From Phoronis australis (taxonomy: Eukaryota; Animalia; Phoronida), in the NCBI GenBank assembly GCA_002633005.1, contig NMRA01000079.1, forward strand, positions 919,148 through 983,147: DNA of 64,000 nucleotides, read 5' to 3'. Within the stretch, counting starts at the first letter, position 1, and each line of letters begins with the position of its first letter. This document shows, in pieces, positions 1-63,400 of this stretch. The notes under the pieces were generated by a model that was given only the letters and a program-made list of their open reading frames with translations, was not told where the DNA came from and searched no databases. The position numbers were made by a program, and so were the translations under genes.

Positions 1-1224
1 TGTGCTAAGTTTCAAAAAAATCGGTGATTTTGGGTATAGACTCTACCTGTTGGTTTTTATATGGAGTCACTCTTAAATCGTCGAGTTTGCCCACTTCGAA
101 CTAGAAATAAGTTCTCAAAGCCACTACAATAACAGCCTCGCAGTGGGTGTTACATATGTATCATAGATATCTGTAGATGATGAAGTGGCCGTGAAATAAC
201 AGTGTTATCACACCGTGAAAGGCATCAACTACTTTTCCCTAATCGCTATCATCTCTAGAGAATATAACCTTGACAATGTCGTAAGGAATACGGTATTGTG
301 CTGGCTAAGTTGACAATTGAGGTAGTTAGATTAACTCATCTTTATGCAGTAGCGCTCACGTCTTAATGTACATTTCTGTTGTGGTTTTAGCGTCTCCAAT
401 ACTTGAAAAACATTTTGTAAATGACACCTGAAGCAAATTTATAGCACAAAATTAATCATAAACGTATTTGTCTCATACCGACTGAAATTTTAATGTCAGC
501 AAAACTTGATCAAAATTAAGGTGAAAGCAGGGTTTAAAGTATGCAAACTCGCAACCTAAATGATACAGCGACCTCGTTTGGCCAACTAGTCATGAACGAG
601 TCGTTGCTATGGTAAAGATATTGCTACGCCAAATACGGAAAGCACAGTCTCCGGGACCTATATGTATCGTGTTGAGTTTACTAAATGTAACAAGTTTTGT
701 ACTAGGACAATTTTTTTAATTCATTTAAATTTTACCAAGTAATTATCTTCTTTAACACAACGTCATGTTCTAATCTTCTGCTCAACATTTAGATTCAGAT
801 ATTGAGTTTATAATGGATATGGAATGCCATCAGAGTAGGGCGAAAAAGATACATGTATTAATTGTCAGTATTGTGGTCTGTAGCTTAGGCGCTGGTGTTG
901 ATTCATTGTCGAAAACAACATGACTTCTGAATATCCGCGAAGCTAATGTTTTAGTTGACGTCCACTGTCAGTGTCCCCTAGACTTAAAGAAGTGGAGCAA
1001 AGGACCTGATTCATCGCTTTACAAAAACGTTGACTACACTTGATTGACTTCAGGTCAACTTTTGATTGGTCTGTAAACCTCATAACGTCATCGAAAGCAA
1101 ACCTTACAGCTGAACAATCCGGTGAAATCAACATGGTCAACCAAGTGCAGCCAACGAGTTATTACTAACACGTGGACTGGTTAGCAATTCTATGATTATT
1201 AAATTTGCTCTCATCATTCTTCAG

Positions 1225-1445
1225 TAACGACGGCGCTTATGTTGCCATATTCGACACCAATAAGACTTGGGGTACCCACCTGCAAGAAGAACTTTTGTCA
1301 CAGGGTAAGAAAGCAAAATTTTATACTGTTGACGTCACCGACGAGGGCCGGTGTGCTGAGAGCGTCCAAGCAGTTGCAGATGACAACGACGGCGCCGTGA
1401 ACTACTTGGTTAACAGCGCCGCCTACTTCGGAGGCCTGAACACTC
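1225..1445 (+). CDS. SDR internal exon (beta2 to beta4, NSAA motif)
   Basis: Acceptor ttcttcag|t, donor actc|gtaagc; encodes NDGAYVAIFD...LVNSAAYFGGLNT. Confidence 0.88.
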
Positions 1446-15490: not shown

Positions 15491-15808
15491 ATGAATGAAA
15501 TCGAGAATATTTACCACCAAATTGATGGCTTTGGATCCTATCAGATTAGAACTTTCATACTTGTTAACCTGTTGGAGTTTTGGGCAGCTATGGCCATGAT
15601 GTTGCTGGTATTCACGGGTGCCAAACCCGATATGGTCTGCGGTATGGAGGGAAACGAGCAGAATGTATCCGTGCGACATGGTGTCTGGGAGCCTTCATAC
15701 CTTCACCTAAACGCATCCAGGAACCTGACGAAGGACGTGTGTTGGGGACCAAATTCGATTTGCCCCGGTCTGCGGTATTCGGAAGAATTTTCATCGATTG
15801 TTACGGAG
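15491..15808 (+). CDS. SLC22 gene 1, first coding exon, variant 1a (TM1 + extracellular loop)
   Basis: ATG...SIVTE|gtaatt, phase 0, open frame, 3 Cys, sequons NVS/NAS/NLT. Confidence 0.8.
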
Positions 15809-27800: not shown

Positions 27801-30800
27801 TGTGTCCTTATTTTCGCTGTCATTGATAATTTGTTTCTTCAGGTGGATTCCCGAAAGCCCGCGATGGCTTGTCATGCAAAATCGAATGCAGGAAGCTTGC
27901 GACGTCATTAGAGCCATGGCAAAATGCAATAAAAAACCTGTGCCAGATCTGTCCGGCCTATCCGCGTATGCCAAGGTCTGTATAAAAACGATAACGCCAT
28001 GTGAGGTTGTGCTCCTAAATTTGTCATTGATGCTTAACTAGACTTGTATCGGATCTTAGTATTGGCATTAGTGTAGAAGACATTGATATTCCGACCTGTT
28101 TACGTAGGATCTCCGTGAGACCCTAACCACAGCCTACAGTGTATGCCTACTACATTGAAATATACGTGTGAGATTGTGACGGTTAGAAAAACATGTACGA
28201 CAAGAAGCCATATGGGACAACGTTCTCAAGTGATTTGGTCTGACGTCAGATGTCTGTCCAATCTTTTTCCGGGTCAAACAGTTTGAGAGGATTTCTTATT
28301 AAAGGCACATAGAAAATCAGAGGATTTACATTCAGGAATTTGTTTTGACCCTGTTTTCTCATTTTCCAAAAGATACACGCATTCTAAAGTGCAAATGTTT
28401 GGAAAAACTCCTCCCAGTTGCAACGTTGAGATACAGTGTACATGTACATGTATGAACGTGTTCTAGACATTTTCTATAGAGAGTCTACAAACCGTCCTTG
28501 ACCGGGACTAAAACCCCAGTCTCTACATGTCCTTCAAAAAGGTTATACAAAGTTACTCTGTATTACACTGTAGATGGACGCAATTTCTACATGTAACATT
28601 TGCTAACGACAAATTGCTCTTTCTCCAGAAAGAAAGAGAGCATCAAAAAGCCATTCGAGCCTACAGTTACTGGCATTTATTCAAAACAAGGAAAATGGCG
28701 AAGATAACTTTGCTGGCTATGTACGCATGGTAAGAGTTCCGTATTAATTTTGTGAGTGAAACACTGATAACGTTTTGGATACACAAGTATTCAATTATTG
28801 AACGATGCCAAAACCTTCATTCATTAACGAATACATGATTTGAAATGGCGTGGTGTCAATGTTAAAGGAGAATACCACCCGGTATATTTCGTTTTTTACC
28901 GTCTTAATCGGGCTATATCCACATAACCTCGTATACTGCCGATCTCATATCTGTGAGGAGTACACGACGCAGCGACGTCAGTGGTTCTGCAGCTGTGTAT
29001 GTGCCGCCATGACGTGGCGTATCGTTCCCTCTAGTACGAACCGTGAAGCTGTGACGAAAGCGGGTATATCGTAATTTTCGATTTTCTCGGGAACTTGAAG
29101 TGCTTCAAGAGTGGTTCGCGGCAGTAAAAAATGAAAAGCATGCCGTTGTCACCAGGTACATGCATGAGTCGGTGAAATATTTCCGTACCTGTGGCCGTCA
29201 TTGCTTTGTTTCAAAATTAATTATTTATTCTCACCCTAACCAACGTTTATTAAAGCTGAAACAAAGTGTCTCGAAAGACAGGCTCAGCAGACAATTTGTA
29301 ATGCCTTTTTAGTGTTTGTGAGTGCAAATGTTTTGAGAAACCAACACTGAATGAATCATATGGTGTTTCCAACTTCATATGCAATAAATGTAACTGACCG
29401 GGCACCGAGGCCGTGTGAGTGCATGCTGATTCAGTGTTTGCTGACAGTAAGCTGTTGTGAAACAATAACCGTATTTTACATGCTATAGTCAGACATTAAG
29501 GGAATCTTTTCTTAAATATATATCTACATCATTCGAGTCATTGTTATTGTACACCTTTTGCCCTTTACGGTTCTGTGGAAGGGCAATCTGGCTTCGGGTC
29601 TCCTGATAGTTATGTAAGTAGATTTGCAATTTTCCGACGTTTTTGCCAAAATATTCACATACACATTAGTTCTTTGGTTCACTAGTCTATTCGTGACCGG
29701 AAATTCTAATGTTTAACTTTGGTAGCCGACTAAACCGGTTGGTTTATGTTAAACTTCGTGATGTCTCCAGATTTGCCGCCGGCGACAGGCCTACTCGGGT
29801 TCCGAGCCAGTGGTTTATAACGAGTGTTTTGAACTAAAAAATTCGTAAGTCTAAAATTACAACACACGGATATGCTCTCCTGTCTGAAAGTTTCACGGAA
29901 GAGTAATTTCAATTTCTAACCGAACAGATCCAAACTTCCCGTGATGGACCACTGTAAGCTGGTCTACAGAACTACGTAGGCTACGATATGTTCAAAATGT
30001 CTATAAATCCGTAACAGCGACATGAAAAAACTCGTTTGATTAAAAATTCAATGTATTTTTAATGGCTTCGCATCGATTTTTGATGATTTCTTGGTGTAAA
30101 GCGATAAAGTAAAGCGCTAAACTGACACCACCAAGCGTGCTGTGAACCGCTGAACAGACCGCGTTAAAACCAATGACGTCATTGCTTAATTTCAGTACCT
30201 CTGTCGGCCGTTTGGTGTCAGGTAAAAGAACTGAACCTGCTGTTATCGAGTGGAACTAGGCTATATAAATTGATACAAACTACGATGTTTTTTCCCGGCA
30301 TTCTCTACTCTAATGCGTAGACCTAATGTCGTAACTACATGTACAAATAACGTGATCGGCACTGAGCGTGCTAAGCATTTTATTTATGAGATACAAAGAC
30401 TGCAACTGCCGCAAATTAAACACAATTCGTAATCGCTCATAGTGGAAACGCTTCCTAGACTATAAAACGGAAGCACTCTGAGAGAACGAAATTTGGTTAT
30501 ATCGACTAAGGAAGCCAGTATCAAGACGATGTCAGTGTCGATCAACAGGCGCCAACGCCGAAACACCAACGGCGATTCAGAAGATGACCTTGAAGACCAC
30601 GACGTGCATGTAGCCGCCGTCATTTTTTTTAAACACAGACAATGCCACCAGAATCACAGATAACAGTATGGACGAAGGCGAAAGCTGAAGCCAAAGCACG
30701 AAGCCAAATTTGAAACCACCACCAACGCTGATAAACGACATCTCATCATCGTTGTCGTCAGCAGCATCAAAAAACGGTGATGACAAACGGTGATGAAACA

Positions 30801-33800: not shown

Positions 33801-36800
33801 TACAATCGCTGCTTCTACTGTAACTGCTACCATCACTAACACTACCAATATCATTACCATTACCGCAACACGTACTATCCCAACTATTACAACCATCGCT
33901 GCTACTACTGGTACTACTACTATTGTGGTAATATATTTACTGCTACTACTACTACGACTACTGCTGCTGCTGCTGCTTCTGCGTCTGCTGCTGCTGCTAC
34001 TTCTGCTACAACAACTGCTACCAGTAATGATACTGCTGTTGTCCCTGCTACGACTAAAGAGTTTCTAGTAGTTGAAGCACTTTATTTCCTATTGTTATTC
34101 CTACGATTATTGCAATTATGAACAGCCGCCATAATTCCGTTGCTTTATTACATATTATGTAATAAAGCAACGGAATTATGGCGGCTGTTCATAATTGCAA
34201 TAATCGTAGGAATAATAATAGGAATTAAACAAAGCTATTACTATTACTTCTACTGTAACTGTTACTATTACTATTGCTATCATTATTACTATAATTTCAC
34301 TATTATTACCTTACAAAAAATTACTGTTATTCATACTACTTTGTTTTATCAACTTGGAATCAAGCTGAGATTACTACGTTCCTACAAGCGAGGGACTTGT
34401 TTATTTCCAGGAAAGCTAAATGAACTACCAGGCCTTACAATCGCCATCGTTATATTTGGTAAAGGTGCCATATCAGGAGGCTGGGCAGCTACGATGATTT
34501 TTTCAGCAGAAAGTTTTCCCACTGTAGCTAGGTAAGTGTTAATAATAATCTTTGGCCATTTCGGATCGGTTAACATATATTCATACAAAGTTTAATTTTT
34601 TGCGACCCATAATTTCGGCTTAAAGAAAATATATTGTGTATTTTAAGCTCAAAAGGCGAGACCTGAAATTCCAAACAGATATTGGCTATTGTCTTGCACT
34701 CCCACAAACCATACAAAAACGACGATTAGTGTGAAAGCTGGAATGGGGCTTGGAGACACAAGATTTCAGGGGCCATTCATATATTCACGAGGTTCAGGCA
34801 CAGTAGTGTGGGCATGGTAGGGTATTTCCCTCCTGGACACAAGTTGCCATTTGTCCTGCAAGATTGAAAAAGGTCTTGGAGAAATAGAGAATAATAACGA
34901 TGCATCTTGTACTGAAACCTATTCCACAGAGGAAAGTAAGACACCTCTGGATATTGCACGAATCTGTAAAAAAGTAGGTATCAGCATTGATCTACTGTAT
35001 TGAATCCCAAGGTCCATCCCAAAGACACAAATTTGAACATTAGCAGTGACGGGGCTGTTACTCTAGCAGTAAATGAGACAATAAGCATTGGACAGGCAAT
35101 GCTATCAGACTTCGAGAAAGGCTAGCAGTACGCAAGGAACACAAGTAGGTAATCACTGATGGGAATCTCTTTCCCTTGATGTAGAACAAGAACATTGTCA
35201 CTAGGTATTATTTGGGGACATCCCACGAAGAAGCCGGCTCCATTTTCTGCATCAGGACGTGAAATGTGTTTTTCGGTTGTTACGGATGACATATACACTG
35301 TATGTATTCGTGCTTCGTGTGCATTACTATGACAAGGTGCAGCTTTAAATACCACAACCACGAAATCACCTTGTAAGCGTAGAACTGTCACAGACATAAA
35401 AGTTGACAGTAGAAACGTGTAGTGGTATTGTGAAGGTCTCATCCTGCCGCTCGATGCACTGTAGGGATGCCGTAACAGGGTGGCATGGCACTATGGAGTT
35501 GGAAAGGGGTCCATCGTCAAAATAATGAAGGCAGAACATGAACTGTCTGCCCTAGGCACTATTAATGCGCATTTTTGTGATGTCACAAAACAGGACACTA
35601 AATGTATGTGTGTCTGTTATGGAATGATAAGGAACCTGTGTACAGTGTACTTGTATGGGGAAGAAATAACGGCAGGGGATATATATGAACGTCCGTCGGC
35701 CACCAAACTGTGTACTCTTTGGGTGGGAGAAAGGTGTTATAAACAAATAGCACTCACCATTTTCAATTCCGGAAGGTGTCCAACTCGCCCCTATTAGATA
35801 CTGGAGATGATTAGGTGTGTAGCAAAGGTCACATTCCATGTAATTCAAGCAGATTCAGTAGGATCGTCAATTGTCTCCCCTGCACAACATTTCGGGCATG
35901 TTACACAGCAGTGTGGTTACTTTCTGAGTCTTCAGTTGAATTAGCATTTGGAACTTTTTGTAACAGTGCTCTATACGATAAGGTATATTGTATTGAGTTT
36001 ATGCAGTTAAACATTTTGGTCATCCATTAGATCTACCCTGAGTATCAGACAATTCCAGAATTTGTAATGAGTGTTATACATTACACACAGTGCACTGTTT
36101 TTATTTGATGTAATCAGAAACGAGATTAAGTTCATCCGTACAAATACCAAAATAGTATAAACATATTGCCCCCCCCGTAAGAAAGTTACCAGCAGAAACA
36201 GAATTTTTAATTATGGCGCCTTTGTTTGCATAAATTATGCAAATTTATCATGCAACTTGTTAACTGATATCGTTAACCTTATTGACCATGTAGGAACATA
36301 CAGCCTGTAGGTTCGAATATCATGATTCACCTGTTGTACTGGGTACCGCAGTTGTAAACACAAGTAGCCTTAATTTGAATCAATTGTGCAAATTTGCATG
36401 AAGCATGCAATTTTTCATTCAAAAACATGCAAACTGATTTCAGTAAACTAACTTTCCATCAAAATGGAGGTGCAAATAGGATCTTTGGTTCCTGATACCG
36501 TAGCTATAAGTACATGAAGAATTTGAATAGACGCAGCCTTAATTTGCCTAAATTATGCAAATTGACGATGTATCCACCAAAAAAATTGCAACATAAAATT
36601 CTCGGACCGTGGAAACAGCGGTGAAAACTTCAAAGTCATGTGCCTGCAGTGCCTTTTGAATAAAGTAGAAGCAAATATAGAATTTTGCATAATGGATACC
36701 TTAATTTGCATATTTAAAAGATTCCAAGGGTTGCGATCGGTCTCCCCTTAAATTTTGGTTACTTAACCTTAAGGTACATGAAACAGCAAAGAAAAAACTT

Positions 36801-46880: not shown

Positions 46881-47204
46881 ATGAATGAAATCGAAAATGT
46901 GTACAGTCACATCGGTGGCTTTGGACCCTATCAAATACGGGTGTTTTTCCTAGTACGCCTTATGGAGTTCTGGGCTGCTATAGCCATGATGTTACCAGTA
47001 TTTATAGGTGCCAAACCCGGCATGGGTTGTTTCACCGAGGGAAACAAACACAACGTCTCCACGCATATTGGCCGTGACCAACTATACGTGTACAACCTTC
47101 ACGTTAACTTGTCGACTAATGAAAATAAGAATGTCTGCCGGGGACTGGACGCGATTTGCCCCGGTCTGTGGTACTCGGGCGAATTCACTTCGATAGTTAC
47201 CGAG
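46881..47204 (+). CDS. SLC22 gene 2 exon 1
   Basis: MNEIENVYSHIGGFGPYQ...SIVTE|gtaagt; in-frame TAA upstream at 46842. Confidence 0.9.
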
Positions 47205-50200
47205 GTAAGTTATGTTCATAGCGCATAATTTATCCACAAGGGACAATTAGAACAGTTTAACAAATATTCGGTGTTTATAAAATGAGACGGTTGGCCCTGA
47301 ACCCCTTTGTGAAATCTAAACCTGACACCGTGGATCCGTGGAAACTGCACTCAGTTGACGATATCTCAGTGTTATTTTTTTCATTTGGTAAACTATCAAG
47401 TTTCTTTTATATAATATCTGATTGCTCCCGGCTACAAAAATTTCTGGTGCGGATCATCTAATGAAGATTAGCATTCTATTAAAATGTAAACTGTAAGGTG
47501 ATAATGGCGATGGCATGGCGATCAGGTCGACAACCAAGTTTCCTCAGTATCTCGAGTTTAGACGAGAATCGGAAATTGACTATGCGTTTCGAATAAATTT
47601 GAGCTCGAATCAAGAAATGCAAATGGTTAATTATGGAGGGTCTTCATGGAGTTCGTTTTTAGATCCTGGGCCCTCTGGCTCGTAGCAGCTAGAGCCACCC
47701 GCATGTACATTTATCACACGCCAGCTACGAGGCATGTGATTCGTTTAGGCCACTGTCGGCCGGGTGTTGGGCACGTCCATCAAAGTCTACAATTACTTCA
47801 GAATGAAAACATTAATCGGCAGAAATTTCGAACCTTATGGGACGACCAATACTTACTCTATAACTAGCACTTAAAATGGCTGTCAAGAAATCATTAATCC
47901 TACTATGTTTTTCTAAAATCTCGAGTGCTTGCATTTTGAAAAAATACTTTAAAATTCCAAGACTGTTCCTGTCCGTAGTAGCGTTCAGTGTACTTGAAAA
48001 AATAATAAGCGAATTCTGTTTGATATCTTAAGGTCACTATTCAGAACAGTATTATAAATTGTGGCCATAGGTATTGGAATTGTGGTGACCCAAAATAGCA
48101 TTTGATACTCAAAGTATATAGCCTGGCTTTTGTAACAATGTGCAGAAGACAGATGTCTTCATCATGCCTTTTTCACTGGTTACTTCAAATTCGTTGAATG
48201 GTCACTGGAGAAACTATGGTAGGTTTGAAATTTATTGGTCTTGTTTTATCGCCCCAAAGACCTCCGTGGCAACTCGAGAGGTACATTGCAGTAGCCGTTC
48301 TCGAGTCTGAAGATTCTTGATGTTGGGAAATGTTTGTGGTCGCCGTTTCTCGAGTAATACTCCAGGTCAAGAGCCCATGGGTGTGTATCTCGAAGAATCG
48401 TTTGCTCATAGTGGATATTTTTCTTTTGGCTTCGTTTTTAGCTCCTCTTGAGCAGGCTTCATATTACTGTGTTCCGGCCTCACGTTGTAGACATATTATC
48501 CGACTTTTAGCTGCAGGCTGATTTAGAGAAACACGCTAAGCCACCCAAAGAAGAATTTTTATACAAAAGTTAAGACTAGACACTATACCGGTCAAGAAGG
48601 AGACTTTCTGGTGCATGGTAGGAATAATTACTATTTTTATATGTGGAAACAACACGATAAGATACTCATTGACCCTAGGTGGTCAACATGTTGATAACGG
48701 CATTTTCGAGAGAACTGTGAATCACATTTTGAAACAGGTCCTAGTTTTTCGGAACAAACATTCAAAAATCAAGTGTAACACCGGATTTGCATGATAACTA
48801 AAGAATAATTGCATTTTGATCATTTTCGTCATTTGCAGTACTCGGAAATAGCAAAAAATCCGATCATATATGTATTGTTTGGTATTTCACTATTAGCTGA
48901 AATACGCCTTACGCTCAGTGTCTGAAGTCCAACTTCCGTAAGTTGGCGGATAGGTTATTGCGGATGGACACTTACCGAGTGTGCAGCAGTTTGTTTACAT
49001 GTAGTTAACAGCTTCGTTTTGTTTTACAACAGTTATAAGCCGTCTGGCGGTCTGTGAGTAGATTGTGCTTGAGTGAGCATTCAGTTATTTCAAGTGTTGC
49101 ATTTTTCTCATTTGACTTTGGAAGCTAATTATGAATTATTTTATGTGGACCACAACTGTATGTTTTTGGTCAAAATTGACTCACATTTGCCAAAGATACG
49201 CCAACATATCCATAAATAGTTCCATTGAAAAACAACACGGTCTGTGACCTGGCATACACTGATCGGTGTCATCAATCTGGGTCAAGTTACCAGTCGTAGA
49301 AACAGACTGGACTCTAGTATCCCAATTAAACTACCCCTGTGGGGTTTGCTCCTCTCCCGCCCAGGAAATTTTTCTGTTTTTTTCCTCTAAAAATTAAGCA
49401 TTTTCCTCGATTCGTGAAGTGTTATCCAAGAAAAAAGGCAAAAAAAAAACGTAGAACGTATCAAACAGGAAAACTACAAGATACCAGAGACTCGAACTCA
49501 CAACCTGGTGAATAGAGCGCGCATGCTTTAACACTACACCACCACGACTTAACTACTGATCGTATTCTCAGAGACCTACTTGTTTATGGTCCACAGCGTT
49601 TGCGCCCGAAACCTACTTCTTTTTGTAATGCTTATTACACGTTTTATATTTTGTGCAATCGGTTCTTAACAAATTTGTTGTATATAAAATAGTCTTCAAT
49701 TACCCAAAAGGCCAAATCCGTTTTTCGTGTTGGCAATTGCCTTGGAAATCGTCTTAAGTTAAGGTTTGACAAAGAGAGAATTAATGAGTTTTTGAGTGAT
49801 TCACTAAGGCTTCGATTAAAATTCACATCTTACCAGCAGCTTCTGTTTTTCATCGTCACTCAGGTTCCATTTTCTTTAAAAAATGAAGTAAATTTTCTTC
49901 ATTGCACAGTGGAGCAGACGACGGAAACGGAGTCGTAATGCGTAGCGCCACTCCCGGTCGCCTGGGATATCGCGGGAGAGCCTATACTTAGCCATACAGC
50001 CATACATGTAGTTCCGTTACGAATAAACCGTGTTCTGAATTTGACAATTGAAATTGGATCTGAGCCCCCCCCCAAACACTAAAACTGCACACATTTAAAT
50101 TTTGTTTCATCAGTATAATTTTAGTTACCGGGGTTAATTAATAAACTCAATATTTCCCTACGCTCTTGCTGTTTTATTTTTTTGCGGCAAGCAAGGGGGG

Positions 50201-51994
50201 GCGGGCCCCCTGGACCCCCCCCCCTAATTCCGCCTATGCTATTGGTGGGTCATATTGACTTTAGAAACATCAATTATGATTAGTTTCTTTTAAAAATAAT
50301 ACAAACGTTTTTACGCTATTAGAAACTTTCGGAAATTAGTGTCAATATTTTTGTTGCCGATGCTATGTTACCCGTTTCATGAATAGATAGTTCCCGACTA
50401 AATGTCTTCGATGGCAGCCGGTACATTATGCAGCGCGCGCTTCTTGGCCGCGTGCTAACACTAGTCGGGTTTTTTTAGTCTTCGATTCACGGTTTTCACC
50501 AGTACAAAGAAGGTTAGATTCCTGTTGAGGACAGAGATCTGTTCAGGAAAGATACAATGCAATCCCGCTGACAAGTATGCTGGGTCTGTTTTCAAAGTCC
50601 AGACCATAGTGAGGCTGATTCCTCGCAAGAGCAGCAATTAAAACTTTTGCGTTGTTTTTGAATCGCGGGGTTGGCCCTAAGTTTGAAGTGTATACTGACG
50701 TAACGGTGGGGCTCGTGGTCTACAAACTAAGGACTGTCGAATCTTTCGATTGATAAATTGGAGACTTTCATAGAATTTTAGAACTGCAGGTAAGGCATTT
50801 TTTTGCATATAGTTCTTGGGCTGGGCGCTTACTTTAGCGAAGTCTGGCAACGCGTGGGGGCATTTATAGGGGCCTGGGCGCTTATTAGGGCGAATAGCGG
50901 CAAAATTACATACAGCAGCGTAATTTAATGCACACAAATCACACGTCGTGCAAACCAATCGGCCATTTCACGGCGTTAATCAAACCTAATAGCCTTTGCG
51001 CACCCTGATTTCCGGACATGCGCAATCGTTAAATCGATCGGTTGCAACTTCGCTATTGGAAAAAGTGAAATTCAACCACGTAGGCCTAGGGAATCCCATG
51101 TCAGTTGTTAGCGCGTTTTTTTTCACGTTAACGCGTTTTCTCAGACTTCCTCGTAAGCCTACCACCTAACGCGTCAACTTCGCTTTTTAGGTGTGCCATG
51201 TCCTCTCTCTAGACATTGCTAGAGGCAGTCTAAGAATCTTTGGTTCCGCTAAACATTTAACTTGATCAGACTGGGACTCTAATGTTCTACATTAATATTT
51301 TTCTAATCGTTATTTATGTACGGTTTTTCACCGTAATTTAGCGGGCTTACTCCAATTTTTAACTTAATGAAAGATTTAGGCCACTGCACCTGTTTTTTAA
51401 CGAAACGCTATGACCCAAATACTTCTCAGTTTAAAGTACATTAATTCAGCCAAATGCCAATGAACCAACTGACAACACACTCCGAGATCATCCCCATTAC
51501 CTGGACAAGGCATCCTATTTTCATTATTGGTCTCAACAGGAATGCCAACCAGGTTGAAAGCGGTGTTAGTCCTTGCATTTAACTCCATCATCAACGGGTC
51601 AGCCTCACGCAGCCACACTGTTCTTCATTGGAGACATTTACAATTGCATCATGGTTGTTTGTGACTACATGTACTACCGGCCCACTCTAATGCATGTCGG
51701 CGAAAAAGCTACATGTACATGTATGTTTAATAACGGTTTCCATTGACTCTGGCGGAGCGGAGTCACATTCCACGCGTCAATAAATTTGTCAGGATTGTAT
51801 GTACACATTTCCGTTATACAAGTCTGTAATATTAATTGCAATTATTGTATTTTTAAGTATACATTTAGTCTGTAACGCGTATAGAAAGACACTGACACTG
51901 TTTCCGTCTGCAAGTGCATCATTGGAAAAAGACGTCTTTCCATTTTTTTAATTAACATCATCAGCACCATCCCCATCATCATCATCATCATCAA

Positions 51995-52056
<62 letters not shown>

Positions 52057-54401
52057 NCGACTTAACTACTGATCGTATTCTCAGAGACCTACTTGTTTAT
52101 GGTCCACAGCGTTTGCGCCCGAAACCTACTTCTTTTTGTAATGCTTATTACACGTTTTATATTTTGTGCAATCGGTTCTTAACAAATTTGTTGTATATAA
52201 AATAGTCTACAATTACCCAAAAGGCCAAATCCGTTTTTCGTGTTGGCAATAATGACGCGATTGCTTTGGAAATCGTCTTAAGTTAAGGTTTGACAAAGAG
52301 AGAATTAATGAGTTTCTGAGTGATTCACTAAGGCTTCGATTAAAATTCACATCTTATCAGCAGCTTCTGTTTTTTCATCGTCACTCAGGTTCCATGTTCT
52401 TTAAAAAATGAAGTAAATTTTCTTCATTGCACAGTGGAGCAGACGACGGAAACGGAGTCGTAATGCGTAGCGCCACTTCCGGTCGCCTGGGATATCGCGG
52501 GAGAGCCTATACTTAGCCATACAGCCATACATGTAGTTCCGTTACGAATAAGCCGTGTTCTGAATTTGACACTTGAAATTGGATCTGAGCCCCTCCCCCC
52601 CAAACACTAAAACTACACACATTTAAATTTTGTTTCATCAGTATAATTTTAGTTACCGGGGTTAATTAATAAACTCAACATTTCCCTACGCTCTTGCTGT
52701 TTTATTTTTTTGCGGCAAGCAAGGGGGGGACCCCTGGACCCCCCCCCCCTAATTCCGCCTATGCTATTGGTGGGTCATTTTGACTTTAGAAACATCAATT
52801 ATGATTAATTTCTTTAAAAAAAATACAAACGTTTTTACGCTATTAGAAACTTTCGGAAATTAGTGTCAATATTTTTGATGCCGATGCTATGCTACCCGTT
52901 TCATGAATAGATAGTTCCCGACTAAATGTCTTCGATGGCAGCCGGTACATTATGCAGCGCGCGCTTCTTGACCGCGTGCTAACACTAGTCGAGTTTTTTT
53001 AGTCTTCGATTCACGGTTTTCACCTGTACAAAGAAGTTTGGATTCCTGTTGAGGACAGAGAAGATCTGTACAGGAAAGATAATGCAATCCCGCTGACAAG
53101 TATGCTGGGTCTGTTTTCAAAGTCCAGACCATAGTGGGGCTGATTCCTCGCAAGAGCAGCTATTAAAACTTTTGCGTTGTTTTTGAATCGCGGCGTAGGC
53201 CTAAGTTTGAAGTGTATACTGACGTAACGGTGGGGCTCGAGGTCTACAAACTAAGGACTGTCGAATCTTTCAATTGATAAATTGGAGACTTTCATAGAAT
53301 TTTAGAACTGTAGGTAAGGCATTTTTTGCATATAGTTCTTGGGCTGGGCGCTTACTTTAGCGAAGTCTGACAATGCGTGGGGACATTTATAGGGGCCTGG
53401 GCGCTTATTAGGGCGAATAGCGGCAAAATTACATACAGTAGCGTAGTTTAATGCACACAAATCACACGTCGTGCAAACCAATCGGCCATTTCACGGCGTT
53501 AATCAAACCCAATAGACTTTGCGCACCCTGATTTCCGGACATGCGCAATCGTTAAATCGATCGGTTGCAACTTCGCTATTGGAAACAGTGTGAAATTCAA
53601 CCACGTAGGCCTAGGGAATCCCATGTCAGTTGTTAGCGCGTTTTTTTTTCACGTTAACGCGTTTTCTCAGACTTCCTCGTAAGCCTACCACCTAACGCGT
53701 CAACTTCGCTTTTTAGGTGTGCCATGTCCTCTCTCTAGACATTGTTAGAGGCAGTCTAAGAATCTAAACGTTTAACTTGATCAGACTGGGACTCTAATGT
53801 TCTACATTAATATTTTTCTAATCGTTATTTGTGCACGGTTTGTTCACCGTAATTTAGCTGGCTTACTCCAATTTTTAACTTAATGAAAGATTTAGGCCAC
53901 TGCACCTGTTTTTTAACGAAACGCTATGGCCCAAATACTTCTCAATTTAAGCCAAATGCCAAAAAGAACCAACTGACAACACACTCCGAGATCATCCCCA
54001 TTAGCTGGACAAGGCATTCTATTTTCATTATTGGTCTCAACAGGAATGCCAACCAGGTTGAAAGCGGTGTTAGTCCTTGCATTTAACTCCATCATCAACG
54101 GGTCAGTCTCACGCAGCCACAGTGTTCTTCATTGGAGACATTTACAATTGCATCATGGTTGTTTGTGACTACTACCGGCCCACTCTAATGCATGTCAGCG
54201 AAAAAACTACATGTACATGTATGTTTAATAACGGTTTCCATTGACTCTGGCGGAGCGGAGTCACATTCCACGCGTCAATAAATTTGTCAGAATTGTATGT
54301 ACACATTTCCTTCATGCAAGTCTGTAATATTAATTGCAGTTATTGTATGTTTAAGTATACATTTAGTCTGTAACGCGTATAGACATCGACATCACCATCC
54401 C

Positions 54402-54447
<46 letters not shown>

Positions 54448-57400
54448 GACATCCCCATCATCATCATCATCATCATCATCGTCGTCATCATCATCGTCAT
54501 CATCATCATTATCTTTATCATCACCACAACCATGATCACCACCATCATCAGCACCATAACATCATCATCACCATCATCATATCATCATCGTCATTGTTAT
54601 CACCATCACAACATCATCATCATCATCATCGCCATCCTCACCACCAATATTATTCAACAATCCAGACTCGTGTCATCCGACAGCTACAATGTAACGAGTA
54701 AAACCCCAACGTGTTAACGATGGACTGGCCTGGACTCCACTCGGTCCTAATATTTAACGGGCCTTTGACAGTCTCATATCTGTTGTAGTGGAACTTAATA
54801 TGCGACTTGGCATATGTCAGCGATCTCATCACCACAATCCAAATGGTCGGAGTTCTCGTTGGTGCTCTCTTGTGCGGACAGGTTGCTGACGTTTTTGGAC
54901 GAAAGAAAGTTTTGTTTGGAGTTTACAGCTCCTTGGTGGTGTTTGGGTTTGCGTCTGCATTTTCGTCCTCCTGGCCAGTATACGCCGTCATGCGCTTCAT
55001 TATAGGAGCTTCGCTCGGAGGTTCGTACTTTAATAAAGTTCCAATTTAAACCATTAAGACAAAACTGCCAACTTTAAGATTAAAATAGACATGCAGATCG
55101 AAAGAAAGAAACAGATGCAGCACATACTAAAATACAAACCACTTAAGAGTGACAAATGCATCATCAGAAATTGATTATGTGACGTGATTGCACCGCATGC
55201 ATTTGGACGAATTCGCAATGTGTTTGAAAACGAGGTGTTGTGTCCAAACTACAATGGTTCTGCATTTTTACAAATGATGATAATAGGGGGAATTCTGACG
55301 TAAAAAATCAGGTTTTGCAGTGCTACAAAGGTGCTAGTATTGAATGCAGGTATTTCCTTCCTGATCGACAGACCATTTTCGTTCACACGTGATCGCAACT
55401 CGTTTCTCGCCCTTTGCATTCCATCTACCCCAAAGCATGTCTTTAACAATATGCTTTTTTTTCTTTGGCTGTCCGTGACAAAAACGAATGTAGTTCGTAA
55501 GAAAAAAGGTGCTACGAAGGTTACGCTTATAGTGCCTTGAAAAAAGGCACGCTTAGAGTCGAGTATGAGACTTAGGGTCCGGGTATATTATTTTTATCAT
55601 TTTATTCTACTTTTGTGGGAACTCATTGTCGATTTAAATGACTACTATATGTTTATTATTCTGAGGTCGTGTACATATTGGCTTTGTAGCTAGCTTTCCG
55701 AACCTAGTTTGCACTTGAAAACCCCACAATAAAAATGAGCCTGGAATCGAAATTCCAAGTCTTAATAGAGCTTGTAGCAGGGGTATACATGTGTAGCGAT
55801 CAGCAGGCGCAAACTTGGATTAGAGGTCCATTTGGGTAAATCATGAGGTGCTCGGCTAAAGACTGATTGTCATTTATCTTGAGTTCGCACGAAAGTAAAA
55901 CGGAAAACGACAAGAATAATGTCGAGTTCGACTTCGAGTACAAAGATTTGTTCCTGGCCCTAGAGGTTCGGTACTTAGAATGTTGTTTTGGTTCAGCAAG
56001 CAGTGGAAATAACGTATCTCTAATGTGTACTTCACAAACTGTTTAAAGATCCGTTTTTAAGACGTATTTATGGTACATGACATATGGGTCTTTTACAGTG
56101 AAGCAAATCTAGTGTGATCAAGCGCTTTACTCGGGTATTGCTTTTCGATATCTCAATAAAACCTGCATCGACAGAGCGTCTACCTGAGCCATATTTGAAT
56201 TCATTCAAGTTTTTAGATAGACTGGGCAGATTCGGATGAAGAGTGGGGATCAGGAGCTTTACCCCTTCCCCTGGGACAGGGTCAGAACTGAAATAAAAAA
56301 CGTCGCCAGAAAAAAAAAACAAAATCTGCTACTAAAACAAAAAAAATCTTACACTAGAGGGGGAAAACCCTCCCGACCTTCCCCGCTCGGACTTACCGCC
56401 CCCTTACTCAACGAAAATCTGCCACTGCGGGGGTTATGCTAATCGTCTTCCCGTGTTATGCTGCGTCAATATGTATTCCTGAGCGCCACCTTTTTCTGAA
56501 ACAATATAGCGAACCAAAATTAGGATCAATACACCAACAACTGCGAAAAGGGAAAGTAGTTGGCACTATTAATTCTTTGCAATTTACTATAAACGGCAGT
56601 AACACAAAGGTATACTTTTTATAGGATTGCTTGTCGTATCGTATGTTGTTCCAATGGAAATCGTATCGCCTCGGTGGAGAAACCTTTGCGGCTGTATCAC
56701 GTTTTGGGGGCTTGGTGTCGCATTTCTGGCGTTTCTGGCATATCTAGTACGAGACTGGCGAAATCTAGTGATGGTTGCGACAGCGCCAGGATTGATCGTT
56801 TTATTGTCGTGGTGGTAAGTTTCTTTATTTACTTTTCGCGTAAATGCATACAAGCTGCCCAAATTAGTCGAGCTATACCGTTGAAAATGCATTTTGGGAT
56901 TGCTGTAAAGGCTAGACTTTTTGAAGTTATAAGGTTTGGGTTAAATTCATAACAGGTGCTTTAGAGATGTTAATATAAATTGCGAATTCTCGCCGAAATC
57001 ACGACTCCCACTCAACGCGCTGATGTTAGTCATTCATACATGTATCTCTGCTATTAGAGTTCGCTGTGACTCGGGAGCGGAGGCCTCCATGTTCGATATT
57101 ACCCTGATCCAAATCTCTAAAAATACCTTTCTCATCGATAATGTCCAGTTAATACCCTGGAAAGTCTCTTAACCTCGCTTTAAGCGTTTCGACTTAAGCT
57201 GGGCCTGCCTCATTGCGTTTTTGAATTAGTAATATTCTAATGTTCAGTGGAACAAGATAATGGAAATGCATTGAAATTGGCATACATGTACATTATCCTT
57301 CTTCGAACTTCTCCATTTACAAACCGATTTAATAGCATTCTTTTTTGGCTACAGTGACGTTAAGGAGATGGTTTTGAGTCAGTGAAGCGGTCGTGGTACG

Positions 57401-60400
57401 GTGGTCTAGGACGTTGTGGGGTTTTAGAACAATCCCCACACAGCCACTTGGTTTGCATAGTGGACGAATACTATGCTGAGCTCTGAATTAACCCACTGAA
57501 GTACATGACAACACAAACTCTCCAGCTTTGTTCATTGTCAGAAAAATACCGCGCATACAGTTTCCGTGAGTCCATATCCGCTGCTTAAGCGCTGTAACTG
57601 GCATTCTTTTAATATCTTGTGCAGGTGGATTCCTGAAAGCCCACGATGGTTACTCATGCACAATAGACTACAAGAAGCTCGCGATATCATCACAGCCATA
57701 GCTACTTGCAACAAGAAATCTGTGCCAGATCTGTCAAGATTGGCAGCATATGGCAAGGTCTGTTTCGAAACTGCTGGGAAGTCAATAGTAGCAGACGACA
57801 TATTAGTGAGCCTCTTCCAAGCACTGAGTCCTAAGTTAAAACAGTCTAGTAGTCAGTATACATACAGCGATAACATAACTCAGAAACGTGTTTATCTTAG
57901 TTATTTTCATTGTTTACTCATCCACAGTATACTTCCTCTCTAGCGTCTTCTCCAGTGTGCAACATCTCGATGCACTGGAACTGCGCAACTTTGTGTTTGG
58001 CACCACAATTGAAAACTGTTTGCTATCAGTCAACTGGGGCAAAATTTCCTGAAACCTCATCCTGGAACTCGTGCAAGTAGTTTAAGCAATCATGGGAAAC
58101 CGAGTCGCGTTAGGCGCGTAAGCGAAACTCAACCTGAACTGAAATTTTATTATGAAGACTTGAAATTTGAAACATGGCTTTCATGTGAACTATGTCTTAA
58201 CTTCACTTTTATGTTCTTCAGAAAGAAAGAGAAGGCCAAGCTGCTAATCGTGCTTACAGCTACTGGCATTTATTTGAAACTTGGAAAACGGCGAAGATAA
58301 CATTGCTGGCCATGTATGCTTGGTAAGGAAATAATCATATTTACTGCAACGCCCACCGAGAAGATGAGCTGCTTTTGACTCACCATAGCCCACCGTACGC
58401 TTGTTCACGACTAACTATACTGGGCTTCTCTCTGTCGCATTGCGTATGTTGTGTGCTAAACAACAAATTGGCGCCTATTCTCCATTTGAAGGATGAAAAA
58501 TAAACCTGTAGTGTAGGTTGTCTCCCAATATAAATATCTTGGGGTGTTTTTATGCCAATATTTGGTTGGTCCAAAGCGACTAAAACTCAGGCACGTCAAG
58601 GTATGTCAATCTCTAAATTTAGAAGGCGGTGCACGAAATTACAATTACTTGAACTGGCCAAAGATCGCTGTGCCAGCTATGTGCCATGGTGTGGAAATCT
58701 GGTGATTCATAGAAATACGAATGTCTTGAATATGTATATCTTAAATTCCGTAAAACTGCTCTTGGAGTTGGAAACTCTTGCTCAAACTCAGCTATATTTG
58801 GTGAATGTGGAATTCATCCGCTGTATGCAAAATACTCTGTCACATGTGTAAAATATTGGCTAAAATTATTTAAAATGCCACCTACTAGATACAAAGCGGC
58901 TTATGACATGTTAGCTGATTTAGATCGGAATGGAAGAAATGTGTATCTTCTGTTAGACAAGTGCTATCAAAATACGGTTCTTACGAATCAAGGTGTCACG
59001 TGCGAAGTCTCGTCAAATATTTTCGTGCAAAGCTTAAATGACTGCTTTGAGCAAGTTGGCGATAAGAAATTGAGCATAATGCAAAACTTAAGTTAAATAC
59101 TACTGCAATTTTAAGACTCTTTACTGCTTTGAAGTATATCTTAAGTTAGCGCGCTACATAACTCTCTTATTCAAGCGTTTACTCGGTTACGTTGCTCCAA
59201 CCATAGGCTACAAGCGGAAGCGGGTAGGCATGAGAAAGTGGAATATTACAATAGATTATGTTTGATTTGCAATCATGGTGTTGTAGAGGATGAAAACCAC
59301 TTCCTGTTGATTTGCAAAGAATATTAAAAACTTTAGTCGCGTATTTTTTAAAGACTTTCAATGGAAGCACCCAATTAGGTATATTTGTTATCAAATATGT
59401 GTATTCTGCCCTTAACAGAAGAGAACAACTCTTAAATGGATTGACTGCGTGTGCAAATGAGCCCGTTTAATTTACATGTATTGTACTTTGGGCCAGATAA
59501 TCATTACATGCATTGCTACACGTATGGCCCACATGTTACGGGTTACACTGTCATTATCTCCATTGTATTGCAGGATAATCCCAAACCATATATGCCCTGT
59601 AAGGTTTCTTAGTGGAGAGTATAGAGAATCAATTTACATTAATTTTTTTGATTTGCTCCATCTCAACAAATCATGACTTTTGTCCCGGTTCCGGTTTTTA
59701 ATAATATTTAAAACCGTGATGTAACAGTAATTGTTGACCGCGGAAAAATCTACGTCATAGACCTCCTTCTATGTCGTTTAAAAGAAATGTGCATGTAAAA
59801 TGTATTATAACTTTGCTGAAGCTCGGGCACTATTGGCAATTGTTTGTTACAAAACATTTCAAACCAACCAAACCGTTGGAAAATGTCACCAGATACCTTA
59901 AAGCAGCGGAGTTTTATGCACCGTCACAGTGTAGCAAATATATTTTTGCCATGTCGTGAAATTACGCCTTGAAAACGGTGAAGGATAATACATTTTGCAC
60001 AGTTCAGCTTTGAATGCTTTGTGAATCAACCGATTCCAGATTCACCTTGAATTTATATTTGATGTCGTGTATCAATTTAGGTTCACGTGCACGGCGGTGT
60101 ATTATGGGATCAACTTAAACATGAAGAATCTCACAGGAGATCGCTACGTCAACATTTTGCTGACGGGCATCACAGAAATCCCAGTGCTTTTGATCGCGTT
60201 TGTCACCAATAACAAGTAAGCATCAACTTTTCTAAGGATTGAGCAAGAGTTATATGTTTGCAATCCAGCGTACAGCCTCGTCACCGAACCTCTGAAGGGC
60301 CCTGATCGGTCAAGCTTATACCCAACAGAGCCATCTTCACACATGCATGGGTTGAAAACACATTCCAACAACACACGACCGTATATACTGTATGGCCTGT

Positions 60401-63400
60401 TCATGCACTTGTCTATGTAGTTGCAAAAACTTATGCGCGAGCTACTTATCGAGCAGTGTATTGTGGGATATCATTGTTTCCGCTAACCTTTCCGTTAGAA
60501 AATGCTCTTACAATTGTTAGTTAAGAGACCAGTAGTCCTTAAAACACTCCTGAACAGTTTACGATATTTTAAGTGGTGTGTCCACAGAAAGTTACATCTG
60601 CAATAAGACATATGAAAATTTGTTTGGTACTTGATACTCTATTGATTCATTCCGCTCAGTTTCTGAAGTCCAGCGCCCGTAAGTTTGTGTAGGTTACTGC
60701 GGGTGACCACTTACACTGTAACAAGTGTACAACAGTTTCTTTATATTAACAGCTTCGCCTTTGTTTTACCACAATCAAGCCGTCTGGTTGTCTGTGAGTG
60801 AAATGTGTCAGAGCATTCGGCTAGTTCAACTGTTGCATTTTTTCATTAAATTTTAATAGTTAATTTTGAATTATCTTATGCTACCACAACAGATACGCCT
60901 AAATATACAATGTACACATTCCCGTGGAATCGCAATAATGAGCGTAAAGTTACTTTTATTGCATTTTGTTTATGTGTCGTTGGCTTTAAAGTGATTTCTT
61001 AAATTGTCACAACAACACTTTGCTATGTAAGAATCTGCTTTCCAGAAAATCGACTTCCCAAATAAAGAAAGTAACGCAGTTTCTAAGATCAATACTTTTT
61101 GTTATGGAACCTTTTATAGTGGAATATATATAAAGTAACAACAAGCATAACTATACTTAGAGCTAGCAGTGCAGATGTGCCAGAATCTCTCTGCACACTT
61201 TAAGAAATGTTCTTCCATTGAAGAACACAACTGTCATACACCTGACATACCCATGCTTTCATGTCCGGTCTTACTTAACTCTAAGTTGTGTAAACAACCT
61301 ACATGTACGCCGTACGACTGAGCTCAGGCCCTGAGGGAAATGTTTCTACAGCTACATGGACATTCATTGAAGTTTGTCGGGTTTTCGGATGCCGTTTCTT
61401 GATTGCCTAAGTATGCCTGTAATTTGATGCTGCGATTATTTGTGAAGAAGTCGTGGAGAGAACATATTGATGTTTTAATACAGTATAGATATACATATCG
61501 GTCGTAACAACTTTGAAGATAGCATATTAAAAGTTTCATTTAAAACTTTCCCAACGAAATGATATTCCAAAGCCAACACGTTTGTGTACTACTGGTTTGA
61601 GAGTGGGGCCGTCACAGACAGATTGTTAGCCGCGTTGTGTACGAGGGACGTGCGACCTCTGTGCGACTTCAAGGAAAGCAGCACGCTCTGTCCAAGACTG
61701 TCAAAGTCTTTATTTTGCTGTCGAAAATATATCCAACACTAAACCGACTTATCATTGAAACTGAGCTTACTTAGACTCATTTTTCCCTTCTTCTCCCAGA
61801 GCAGGTCGCCGTTACACGTCATCCGGGTTCTTGGTGCTTGGAACAGCCGCCATGTTTATAACTCTTGCCTTGGACATTACAGGTACAAATTACACCTTTT
61901 TTGGGATCGGATTAGCAAATTCAAGACAGTTGATGATTTTGAGAATGTGTGAGGTCATGTAAACTGCCAAATGCTTTAATTAACTATGCTAAGATTCCTT
62001 TCAATTTTAAACATGGCAATTTACGCTTGTGCCTCTTGAGCTCAAGAACTTGAATGCATGGTGAAGAAAACCTGTTCTTGGCGCCCTTTTGAATTCAAGT
62101 TCTTCTATATTACTTCATTGCACGACCGTCAGTGACATTTTAGTGGCGTTAATTTAGCCCGTAATGTAAGTTTTTAAAGATACTTTCATGACGTTAAAAC
62201 TATGTCACCCAGAAATATACATCGTTTGTTTACCGATATGGCAACCCCTAATAGGCCTACTACCACTTGGTGTCAACCAACACTGCTAGTTCTGGTGACG
62301 TTTACTGTTTTACAACTGCTGGTGTTGCTTTTAATTGTGCTGTCAGTGCTAACAATCTTCTACTCAGGAGCCAACACTGCGCATGTGTCTTATTATCACA
62401 ACAACATTATACTTGCTTTTTACCTATTAACATTTATTATAGACGAACTTCCCACACAGTTCTCTGAAACAAAATAATGCTGTTTAATCCTCCACAAGCA
62501 TTAAGCACTGGGAGAAAAAAGTTGTAAATTGTTTTCTTAGTTTGCTATATGCCACGAATTGTACTGTTGCGCCTTGCTTACCTCAAACTCCAACTGCTCC
62601 CTATTGGTTTGGCAATTGGTTCAAGTAGTGTATGTTAAATGCCCAACAGAATTATTTGTGAACCTATTGTGGTAAATTTAAACAATCGTTTTGGATTGGA
62701 GAAATCACGTTCAAAATTCAAAAATCTATACACGTGCGTTATGATATTCACAAGCTTCCAAAAATTTGAAAGTACACGGTACACTTGTCGCCCCCAGTGT
62801 GTTAGTAGTGGTTCACTAATCCAAAGAACGATAAAAGTAACAGCTGAGGCGATTCAATTAACCAAAACACAAGCGTGTCTTTGATCTGAATCGACAAACC
62901 CTGTGATGCGCAAACCAATCTCGACCGGTAAAGGTGCCAACGTAGGATTTTTTCGTGAAATCGCTTTAGGCGACTAATACTACCACTGTAGGTAAAAAAA
63001 CTCACCAAGGACCATAATATCCAACCTGACAAAGATTGTCCGAGTTAAATCCTGCTTTTACCGTAGAAGTGGGACACCTCAGACGTAGCTGATGACAGAA
63101 ACACGAATGGTTGGAATTACCGAAACACGGTTTATTATACGTTTATGTTCCACTAACACCCTCCCTAAAACGTTGGTGGAATTTTCACTTCAAGGTCTTT
63201 AATCTCATGTATACCCATGCCCCTCACCACGTTTCACTCATGGTACAAGTTTGAAAAGACACGAGGTAGCCTCGCATTCAAGCAAAAGTGCGTTTATTAA
63301 ATTATCTTCCTATTCGCTGCACAATACAGCGTAATTAGGGTTTGTCTCTTCGCAGTTTAACATCTACGTTTTTGAACGCATGCTATTTAGATGCAGTGTG

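What the first reader, a model, noticed from the sequence alone, without database searches (positions are those of the whole stretch)
51666..51673. TA to TACATGTA indel between haplotype copies: a transposon excision footprint caught segregating
Seen: one copy of the duplicated segment reads gtgac-TACATGTA-ctaccggcc (51666-51673); the other reads gtgac-TA-ctaccggcc (54170-54171). Established: Tc1/Tc3-type elements insert at TA and have CA...TG ends, and TACATGTA is their characteristic excision footprint in C. elegans. Inference: this is a filled/empty pair of a germline excision scar, implying recent cut-and-paste activity.
Basis: partly seen in the sequence, partly recalled or inferred. Interest (0 to 1): 0.75.

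Follow-up and report, generated by a model that had tools for sequence, protein, structure and literature searches.

The report
Transposon excision scar segregating between alleles
The six extra letters are a real difference between two versions of the same DNA, likely two inherited alleles of a transporter-gene intron in an invertebrate animal, and they are likely the scar left when a cut-and-paste jumping gene hopped out, one of about forty such marks in this stretch, although the jumping gene itself was not found.

Summary
The indel is real. Both forms occur in independently assembled contigs of the likely source sample, and a second sample also seems to carry both (1 of 3 reads short). Depth fits two alleles falsely placed in tandem. 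TACATGTA occurs 50 times in the window (1.66 expected). Where sister repeats allow a check it is mostly a gain. Its flanks carry the -3A/+3T target bias of Tc1/mariner transposases (63 of 122 ends, background 30%). One scar holds a flank-copied insert like polymerase-theta repair products of Tc1 breaks. The best reading is a germline excision scar of a TA-targeting, CA...TG-ended element (about 0.75). Neither allele holds an element. 'Recent' means only within alleles 2.5% apart, and steady accumulation predicts about 0.4 such indels here. No element, transposase or outgroup was found. This scan has noted the same scars in urchin, coral and mollusc DNA (73 notes, at least 7 genomes). Ten literature searches found no paper describing them in natural animal genomes.

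The parts
51666..51673 (.). Long allele: TA + CATG + TA, the likely excision scar (haplotype 1)
   Evidence: kept in X2 contig; 2 of 3 X5 reads do not show the deletion; lies in near single-copy DNA
54170..54171 (.). Short allele: single TA (haplotype 2); never occupied or precisely excised
   Evidence: 6 letters left out in X1 and X4 contigs and in 1 of 3 X5 reads
49545..52056 (+). Haplotype 1 copy of the falsely duplicated segment, ending in a (CAT)n array before the 1-bp gap at 52057
   Evidence: allele bubble depths 11.9 and 17.6 versus flank contigs mostly 40-48 in X1
52058..54447 (+). Haplotype 2 copy, starting right after the 1-bp gap
   Evidence: 61 substitutions and 18 indels against copy 1
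49995..50010 (.). Scar with a flank-copied 8-bp insert (GCCATACA) between TACA and TGTA, inside a high-copy repeat; present in both haplotypes (also 52520-52535)
   Evidence: 1,381 X5 reads of sister repeat copies break off at 49996 and continue with the sequence after the scar; exact 8-bp duplication ending at the scar centre, about 0.04 expected by chance
51710..51723 (.). Two stacked scars shared by both haplotypes (also 54208-54221)
48996..49003 (.). TACATGTA as a private 5-bp net gain in one of three old repeat copies
60712..60720 (.). TACACTGTA, the 7-bp sister scar, private to one of three old repeat copies
61300..61307 (.). TACATGTA at a 5-8 bp gap against the one sister copy that covers it
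28432..28452 (.). Mixed stack: one 7-bp scar followed by two 6-bp scars, which plain slippage of one unit does not give
46881..47208 (+). Likely first coding exon of the host SLC22-like MFS transporter gene
   Evidence: translation and paralogy to 15491-15823 and 17080-17394; no Pfam hit on its own; SLC22 label recalled, exon joining inferred
54789..55019 (+). Likely second coding exon of the host gene; the indel lies in the intron between the two
   Evidence: Pfam Sugar_tr E=1.8e-9, MFS_1 E=7.7e-8

Best explanation
The long allele is likely a germline excision scar: a cut-and-paste element of the IS630-Tc1-mariner group with CA...TG ends would have inserted at this TA, duplicated it, and later left, and repair likely kept both 2-nt overhangs, turning TA into TA-CA-TG-TA. 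Shown: the 6-bp difference, both forms in raw data, the 30-fold excess of the word, its gain in sister repeats and its flank bias. Inferred: the direction at this one site (gain, about 0.9), the element, and the repair route. Polymerase-theta end joining is favoured over Pol-mu-type NHEJ because one scar carries a flank-copied insert and because the worm's germline TACATGTA product persists without LIG-4 and falls without POLQ. The process has run for a long time and continued into the period in which today's alleles (2.5% apart) diverged. Each scar supplies half of the preferred target to both of its TAs, which likely explains stacked scars.
For: Motif excess 50 vs 1.66; 47 units in 41 clusters once second copies are removed; sister 9-mer TACAGTGTA/TACACTGTA 12 vs 0.94. 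Gains in repeats: 48996, 60712 and 61300 sit in gaps private to one copy; 3 of 22 distinct 4-8 bp gaps carry a motif, about 0.46 expected (the script used 21 gaps, P about 0.01); the 49995 scar is absent from 1,381 reads of sister copies. Flank bias: A at -3/T at +3 in 37 of 82 ends of 6-bp scars, 17 of 24 of TACA[GC]TGTA, 63 of 122 overall vs 30% background, P=8e-7; control TA-N4-TA words 30%. Sleeping Beauty consensus is ANNTANNT (PMC8934666 passages). The -3 signal for the 6-bp class was first seen, so the 9-mer class is the cleaner test. Tc1 breaks have non-complementary 2-nt 3' overhangs, and TACATGTA made up 24 of 103 wild-type, 10 of 36 lig-4 and 3 of 39 polq-1 germline revertants, with total events down more than 20-fold in polq-1; class WW there is a left-flank copy inserted between TACA and TGTA, the same build as 49995-50010 (PMC4490562 passages and Supplementary Data 3). 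Stacked units 6 vs at most 0.86. No motif in 3,176 bp of exon-like DNA, about 3 expected (weak). A third haplotype in X5 shares copy-2 letters at 51429, 51603 and 51618 and probably carries the one short read (weak).
Against: No element was found: no convincing TA-CA...TG-TA terminal repeat pair in the window (best 24 of 40 matching letters, at scar stacks) and no transposase domain in 129 stop-free frames of at least 72 aa. No whole genome was held. No outgroup run was served. The site itself lacks the -3A/+3T signature (G at -3, A at +3). TACATA/TATGTA are not enriched (58 vs 50.8) and TACAGTA/TACTGTA barely (19 vs 12.4), unlike the laboratory spectra. Not every motif in a repeat is a gain: 59473 aligns without a gap, 60906 (TACAATGTA) sits at a deletion in its own copy, 2332 shows a gap in blastn and MAFFT but not in the third aligner, and 48996 is a net +5 rather than +6. 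In the worm assay only in-frame products are seen, and the TG could be copied from that locus's flank. The 8-bp insert at 49995 could also be a later slippage duplication.
Confidence: 0.75

Rival explanations
1. The long form is ancestral at this site and the short allele is a 6-bp deletion between the two TAs (slippage or microhomology-mediated repair). The genome-wide motif may still be old scars.
For: 2-bp microhomology is present; the segment has other multi-base indels (11, 11, 14, 70 bp); no outgroup species was available.
Against: Only 3 of 1,712 possible 6-bp deletions, or 3 of 139 with microhomology, hit the motif, whereas steady gain predicts 0.37 events in the segment. The divergent third haplotype probably carries the short form (1 read).
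Confidence: 0.07
2. The scars are written at TA sites by a break-and-repair process with no element ever integrating, for example a domesticated or abortive DDE transposase or a polymerase adding a fixed CATG.
For: No element or transposase found in the window; one product dominates and the canonical 4-bp footprints are not enriched.
Against: The fixed CA and TG need a template, which element ends supply; the 7-bp sister fits a third terminal base (CAG); 64 kb is a small sample, so absence of an element means little.
Confidence: 0.07
3. TACATGTA is abundant because it is a selected transcription-factor site (Irx homeodomain or MYB type) or a hexamer microsatellite seed, and the indel is regulatory turnover.
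For: TACATGTA is the preferred Irx site as cited in PMC3520976, whose authors rejected the footprint reading for Phytophthora; PsMyb37 binds it (PMC11134190 passages).
Against: It occurs about every 1.5 kb throughout introns and inside repeats, arises in one step where no similar sequence is adjacent, has a 9-bp sister that would break such a site, and 37 of 41 clusters are single units. Binding may be a later use, not the origin.
Confidence: 0.05
4. The two copies are a true tandem duplication, so the indel is a paralog difference and is not segregating.
For: The tool warns that contig word depth is no copy number; X2 allele depths sum to 9.8 against flanks mostly 7.0-8.8; X5 also shows two forms, as a fixed duplication would.
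Against: Copy-specific contigs have less than flank depth (X1 11.9 and 17.6 vs mostly 40-48; X2 5.3 and 4.5 vs 7.0-8.8); the collapsed X1 contig is at 29, where the allelic model gives about 0.7 and the tandem model about 1.4 times flank. A 1-bp gap separates the copies, as at 6613. X5's second form has 8 private differences.
Confidence: 0.06

Closest known systems
Germline Tc1 excision product TA-CA-TG-TA of C. elegans (class L in PMC4490562 Supplementary Data 3, read whole; Eide and Anderson 1988 seen only as cited in PMC3520976)
   Same: Identical 6-bp gain at a TA; flank-copied inserts between TACA and TGTA occur in both.
   Different: In the worm it is one of 26 products in an in-frame-selected assay and is called rare elsewhere; here it is the dominant word by far in unselected natural DNA, and no element is known.
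Somatic Tc1/Tc3 footprints TACATA and TATGTA (bioRxiv 10.1101/2022.08.01.502254, PMC12632400 and 10.1101/659086, passages)
   Same: TA target, 2-nt CA/TG ends.
   Different: These 4-bp forms are 73-78% of somatic events in the worm but are not enriched here (58 vs 50.8).
Sleeping Beauty and ZB footprints and target preference (10.1101/659086, PMC8934666, PMC7913693, passages)
   Same: TA target with A at -3 and T at +3; CAG ends would explain the 7-bp sister scar.
   Different: SB leaves TACAGTA/TACTGTA, only weakly raised here (19 vs 12.4); TACATGTA is not among the eight SB footprints listed.
Excision footprints found by comparing rice genomes (PMC4423477, passages)
   Same: Natural excisions read from genome comparison.
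   Different: There the element is still present in the other genome and the footprints are varied (8 of 94 perfect); here a single fixed scar recurs and no element is seen.
Phytophthora motif-1/AM-20 TACATGTA (PMC3520976, PMC11134190, passages)
   Same: Same abundant palindrome.
   Different: Treated as a transcription-factor site in promoters and the footprint origin was dismissed; here it behaves as an insertion in introns and repeats.

Membership tests
Excision footprint of an IS630-Tc1-mariner element | Target TA duplicated around the added bases | tested here: met
   TA versus TA-CATG-TA at the same position
Excision footprint of an IS630-Tc1-mariner element | The long form is the derived state | tested here: inconclusive
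   No outgroup for this site; deletion null 3 of 1,712; one read on a divergent haplotype; gains at 48996, 60712, 61300 and 49995, no gain at 59473
Excision footprint of an IS630-Tc1-mariner element | Added bases equal the termini of an element present in the same genome | tested here: inconclusive
   No CA...TG terminal repeat pair in the 64-kb window; whole genome not held
Excision footprint of an IS630-Tc1-mariner element | DDE/D transposase source in the genome | not testable with these tools
Excision footprint of an IS630-Tc1-mariner element | Target-site bias A at -3 / T at +3 | tested here: met
   Met for the class, 63 of 122 ends vs 30%; not met at 51666 itself
C. elegans somatic Tc1/Tc3 footprint spectrum | TACATA and TATGTA dominate | tested here: not met
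   58 observed vs 50.8 expected; a small excess could hide in this background
Sleeping Beauty-type footprint | TACAGTA/TACTGTA dominate | tested here: not met
   19 vs 12.4 expected, against 47 vs 2.0 for TACATGTA
Polymerase-theta-mediated end joining of transposon breaks | Flank-templated inserts at the break | tested here: inconclusive
   One clear case (49995-50010, about 0.04 expected) and one ambiguous 5-bp case at 37401; slippage not excluded
Polymerase-theta-mediated end joining of transposon breaks | Genetic dependence on POLQ | not testable with these tools
   Needs a knock-down or mutant
Haplotype false duplication | Copy-specific depth about half, summed depth no more than single-copy flanks | tested here: met
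   X1 11.9+17.6 vs mostly 40-48; X2 5.3+4.5 vs 7.0-8.8; contig depth is a rough measure

The most novel reading that the evidence does not exclude
In this animal the germline converts most Tc1/pogo-type excisions into one fixed 6-bp scar by polymerase-theta-type repair. Such scars make up on the order of 1 in 80-200 sequence variants, re-attract the transposase by creating ANNTANNT targets, and mass-produce an Irx/MYB-type palindrome. Population resequencing would then give a direct, datable count of natural germline excisions without needing to see the elements.
Probability: 0.35. Interest if true: 0.7.

Novelty: new variant of a known kind. Interest (0 to 1): 0.45.

Why it matters
Germline excision rates of DNA transposons in nature are hard to measure, because homologous repair hides most events and footprints are usually varied. 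A single, countable scar that is both fixed at about one per 1.5 kb and still polymorphic would let excision be counted from ordinary resequencing data. It would also explain an abundant palindrome that motif finders can mistake for a transcription-factor site. The single indel on its own is modest: one intronic variant with no shown effect.

Tried and rejected
Whole-genome test of the indel class: no genome held. Outgroup: only runs of one organism were served. Metagenome scan with a 20-letter piece of the high-copy repeat gave 4 loci of 53-65% GC matching only 20-25 letters, so chance matches, dropped. Terminal-repeat scan of the window: nothing convincing (part of that output was cut, but the CA-ended list was complete). 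Pfam on 129 frames: only SDR and MFS exons plus sub-threshold hits. Rfam and ARAGORN: nothing. CpG decay of TACGCGTA as the source: rejected, since it cannot make an indel, the source word is absent and CpG observed/expected is 0.91. Local slippage or hairpin (P-nucleotide) origin at 51666: rejected, since CATG is not adjacent in the short allele. LINE-tail origin: unlikely, since 37 of 41 clusters are single units and the 51710 stack is in near single-copy DNA. The first read-laying run (15) was swamped by repeats and hid 59 indel rows, so it gave no survey of other polymorphic scars. Eide and Anderson 1988, Plasterk 1991 and a Tc1-in-human-cells paper were not held; PMC2289394 held only references. 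Search one search was uninformative. Supplements of bioRxiv preprints were closed and could hold further footprint tables.

Full report
Observation. The indel is exactly as described: TACATGTA at 51666-51673 and TA at 54170-54171. The two copies run 49545-52019 and 52058-54447, are separated by a single N at 52057, and differ by 61 substitutions and 18 indels. The site lies between two exon-like stretches of an MFS transporter gene (46881-47208 and 54789-55019; Pfam Sugar_tr E=1.8e-9 for the second). The SLC22 label is recalled and the exon joining is inferred. That the host is an invertebrate animal is inferred from gene structure and repeats; I did not test it.

Alleles or paralogs. Five runs of one organism were served: X1-X4 from one sample, probably the source of the assembly and so not independent, and X5 from a second sample. 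On 51385-51935 the 6 letters are left out in the X1 and X4 contigs, kept in the X2 contig, and left out in 1 of 3 X5 reads (how far the other two reads extend past the site is not shown). At 51763-51881 the two forms assemble separately at depths 11.9 and 17.6 in X1, 5.3 and 4.5 in X2, and 2 and 2 in X4. Flanking single-copy contigs are at 39.9-47.7 in X1 (one at 30.3) and 7.0-8.8 in X2 (one at 12.1). The collapsed X1 contig is at 29; k-mer sharing predicts about 0.7 times flank for alleles and 1.4 for a tandem pair. The tool warns that contig depth is no copy number, but the pattern fits alleles. X5 holds 13 reads at least 99% like copy 1 and a third haplotype with 8 private differences that shares copy-2 letters at 51429, 51603 and 51618. 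So the long allele is heritable and probably present in two samples.

The site is one of many. TACATGTA occurs 50 times against 1.66 expected: 47 units in 41 clusters after removing the second copies. Among all TA-N(1-7)-TA words the next strongest are TACAGTGTA/TACACTGTA (12 vs 0.94) and TACAATGTA (8 vs 1.28). TACATA/TATGTA (58 vs 50.8) and TACAGTA/TACTGTA (19 vs 12.4) are not clearly raised. One-mismatch variants are 67 vs 36, which points to long-running accumulation.

Direction. No outgroup was available. In a three-copy old repeat, motifs at 48996, 60712 and 61300 lie in 5-8 bp gaps private to one copy. Of 22 distinct 4-8 bp gaps in seven repeat alignments, 3 carry a motif, about 0.46 expected (the script used 21). 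Against this, 59473 aligns without a gap, 60906 sits at a deletion in its own copy, 2332 depends on the aligner, and 48996 is net +5. At 49995-50010, inside a repeat several hundred copies deep, 1,381 X5 reads break off after the first TA and continue with the sequence after the scar, so this scar is derived. For 51666, only 3 of 1,712 possible 6-bp deletions (3 of 139 with microhomology) would remove the motif, while steady-state gain predicts 0.37 events per 61 substitutions. I put gain at about 0.9.

Transposase signature. Around the motifs, A at -3/T at +3 is seen in 37 of 82 ends (6-bp class), 17 of 24 (TACA[GC]TGTA), 8 of 16 (TACA[AT]TGTA) and 63 of 122 overall, against 30% for other TA sites and for control TA-N4-TA words (P=8e-7). 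This is the ANNTANNT consensus of Sleeping Beauty (PMC8934666, passages). The site at 51666 does not itself fit (G at -3, A at +3). A scar gives each of its two TAs half of that consensus, and stacked units are in excess (6 vs at most 0.86), including a mixed 7+6+6 stack at 28432. The re-targeting idea was shown to me in earlier notes on diatoms before I ran this count; slippage could explain the pure stacks.

Mechanism. Tc1 excision leaves non-complementary 2-nt 3' overhangs (PMC4490562, passages). Keeping both gives TA-CA-TG-TA. In that paper's Supplementary Data 3 (read whole) this product is 24 of 103 wild-type, 10 of 36 lig-4 and 3 of 39 polq-1 germline revertants, with all events down more than 20-fold in polq-1; precise loss back to TA is 25 of 103. 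The assay sees only in-frame products, and the TG could be copied from that locus's flank. Its class WW, a copy of the left flank placed between TACA and TGTA, has the same build as 49995-50010, where the 8 letters ending the left side are repeated (about 0.04 expected by chance). This favours polymerase-theta repair; Pol-mu-type joining of non-complementary ends (PMC3526283, passages) is the alternative. Both are inferred. The 7-bp sister fits CAG-ended elements with one extra base kept.

What is missing. No convincing TA-CA...TG-TA terminal repeat pair exists in the window, no transposase domain was found in 129 stop-free frames of at least 72 aa (low-complexity frames skipped), and no genome was held. 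The element is therefore not identified, and Tc1, mariner or pogo cannot be told apart.

[quoted passage not shown] 'Characteristic' is too strong, though the product is well documented in the germline. Neither allele is 'filled'. 'Recent' holds only in the sense of younger than the split of alleles 2.5% apart.

Novelty. Ten searches of the held library (listings only, and for the top 40 of 425) showed no paper reporting genome-wide TACATGTA scars in natural animal genomes; most subscription journals are not held. The abundant Phytophthora TACATGTA is treated as a transcription-factor site. This scan has noted the same pattern in urchin, coral, bivalve and other mollusc DNA (73 notes in at least 7 genomes); these are unchecked notes and not counted as support. 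What this window adds is a scar seen as a likely allele pair in two samples, the flank bias, and a flank-templated scar.

Verdict. Real, likely a germline excision scar of a TA-targeting element (0.75); a new variant of a known kind; interest 0.45.

Noticed in passing
window 34081-34229: A 149-bp near-perfect palindrome (74-bp arms, 97%) in an intron, centred on TACATA-T-TATGTA at 34149-34161. It could be a fold-back duplication seeded at an excision break, or a palindromic MITE.
   Followed up: no
window 13559, 18158, 24411, 41674, 46723, 54685, 60906, 63912: TACAATGTA occurs 8 times on the + strand and its reverse complement 0 times, while the TACAGTGTA/TACACTGTA pair is balanced (5 and 7). 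The genes here are on +. Post hoc and unexplained.
   Followed up: partly
window 49290-49545 (- strand): A tRNA-like head with A-box and B-box look-alikes (motifs recalled) starts a high-copy repeat, possibly a SINE; ARAGORN and Rfam found nothing.
   Followed up: partly
window 49150-51381: A block of nested high-copy repeats, up to about 2,400 X5 depth against about 3 for single-copy DNA; not classified.
   Followed up: no
window 6346-6880: A second probable false duplication: 267-bp copies, 99% alike, on either side of a 1-bp N at 6613.
   Followed up: no
window 15491-63652: A tandem cluster of MFS transporter genes with exons 76-88% alike; three first-exon-like copies (15491, 17080, 46881) but only two sets of later exons in the window.
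   Followed up: no
window 1196-9010: Exons of a short-chain dehydrogenase gene (Pfam adh_short).
   Followed up: no
window 2036-3727 and 28861-30293: Two inverted copies, about 67% alike, of an old 1.5-kb repeat with no Pfam domain.
   Followed up: no
window 58713-59096: A 127-aa intronic frame that resembles the C-terminal end of a LINE reverse transcriptase (recalled resemblance; no Pfam hit).
   Followed up: no
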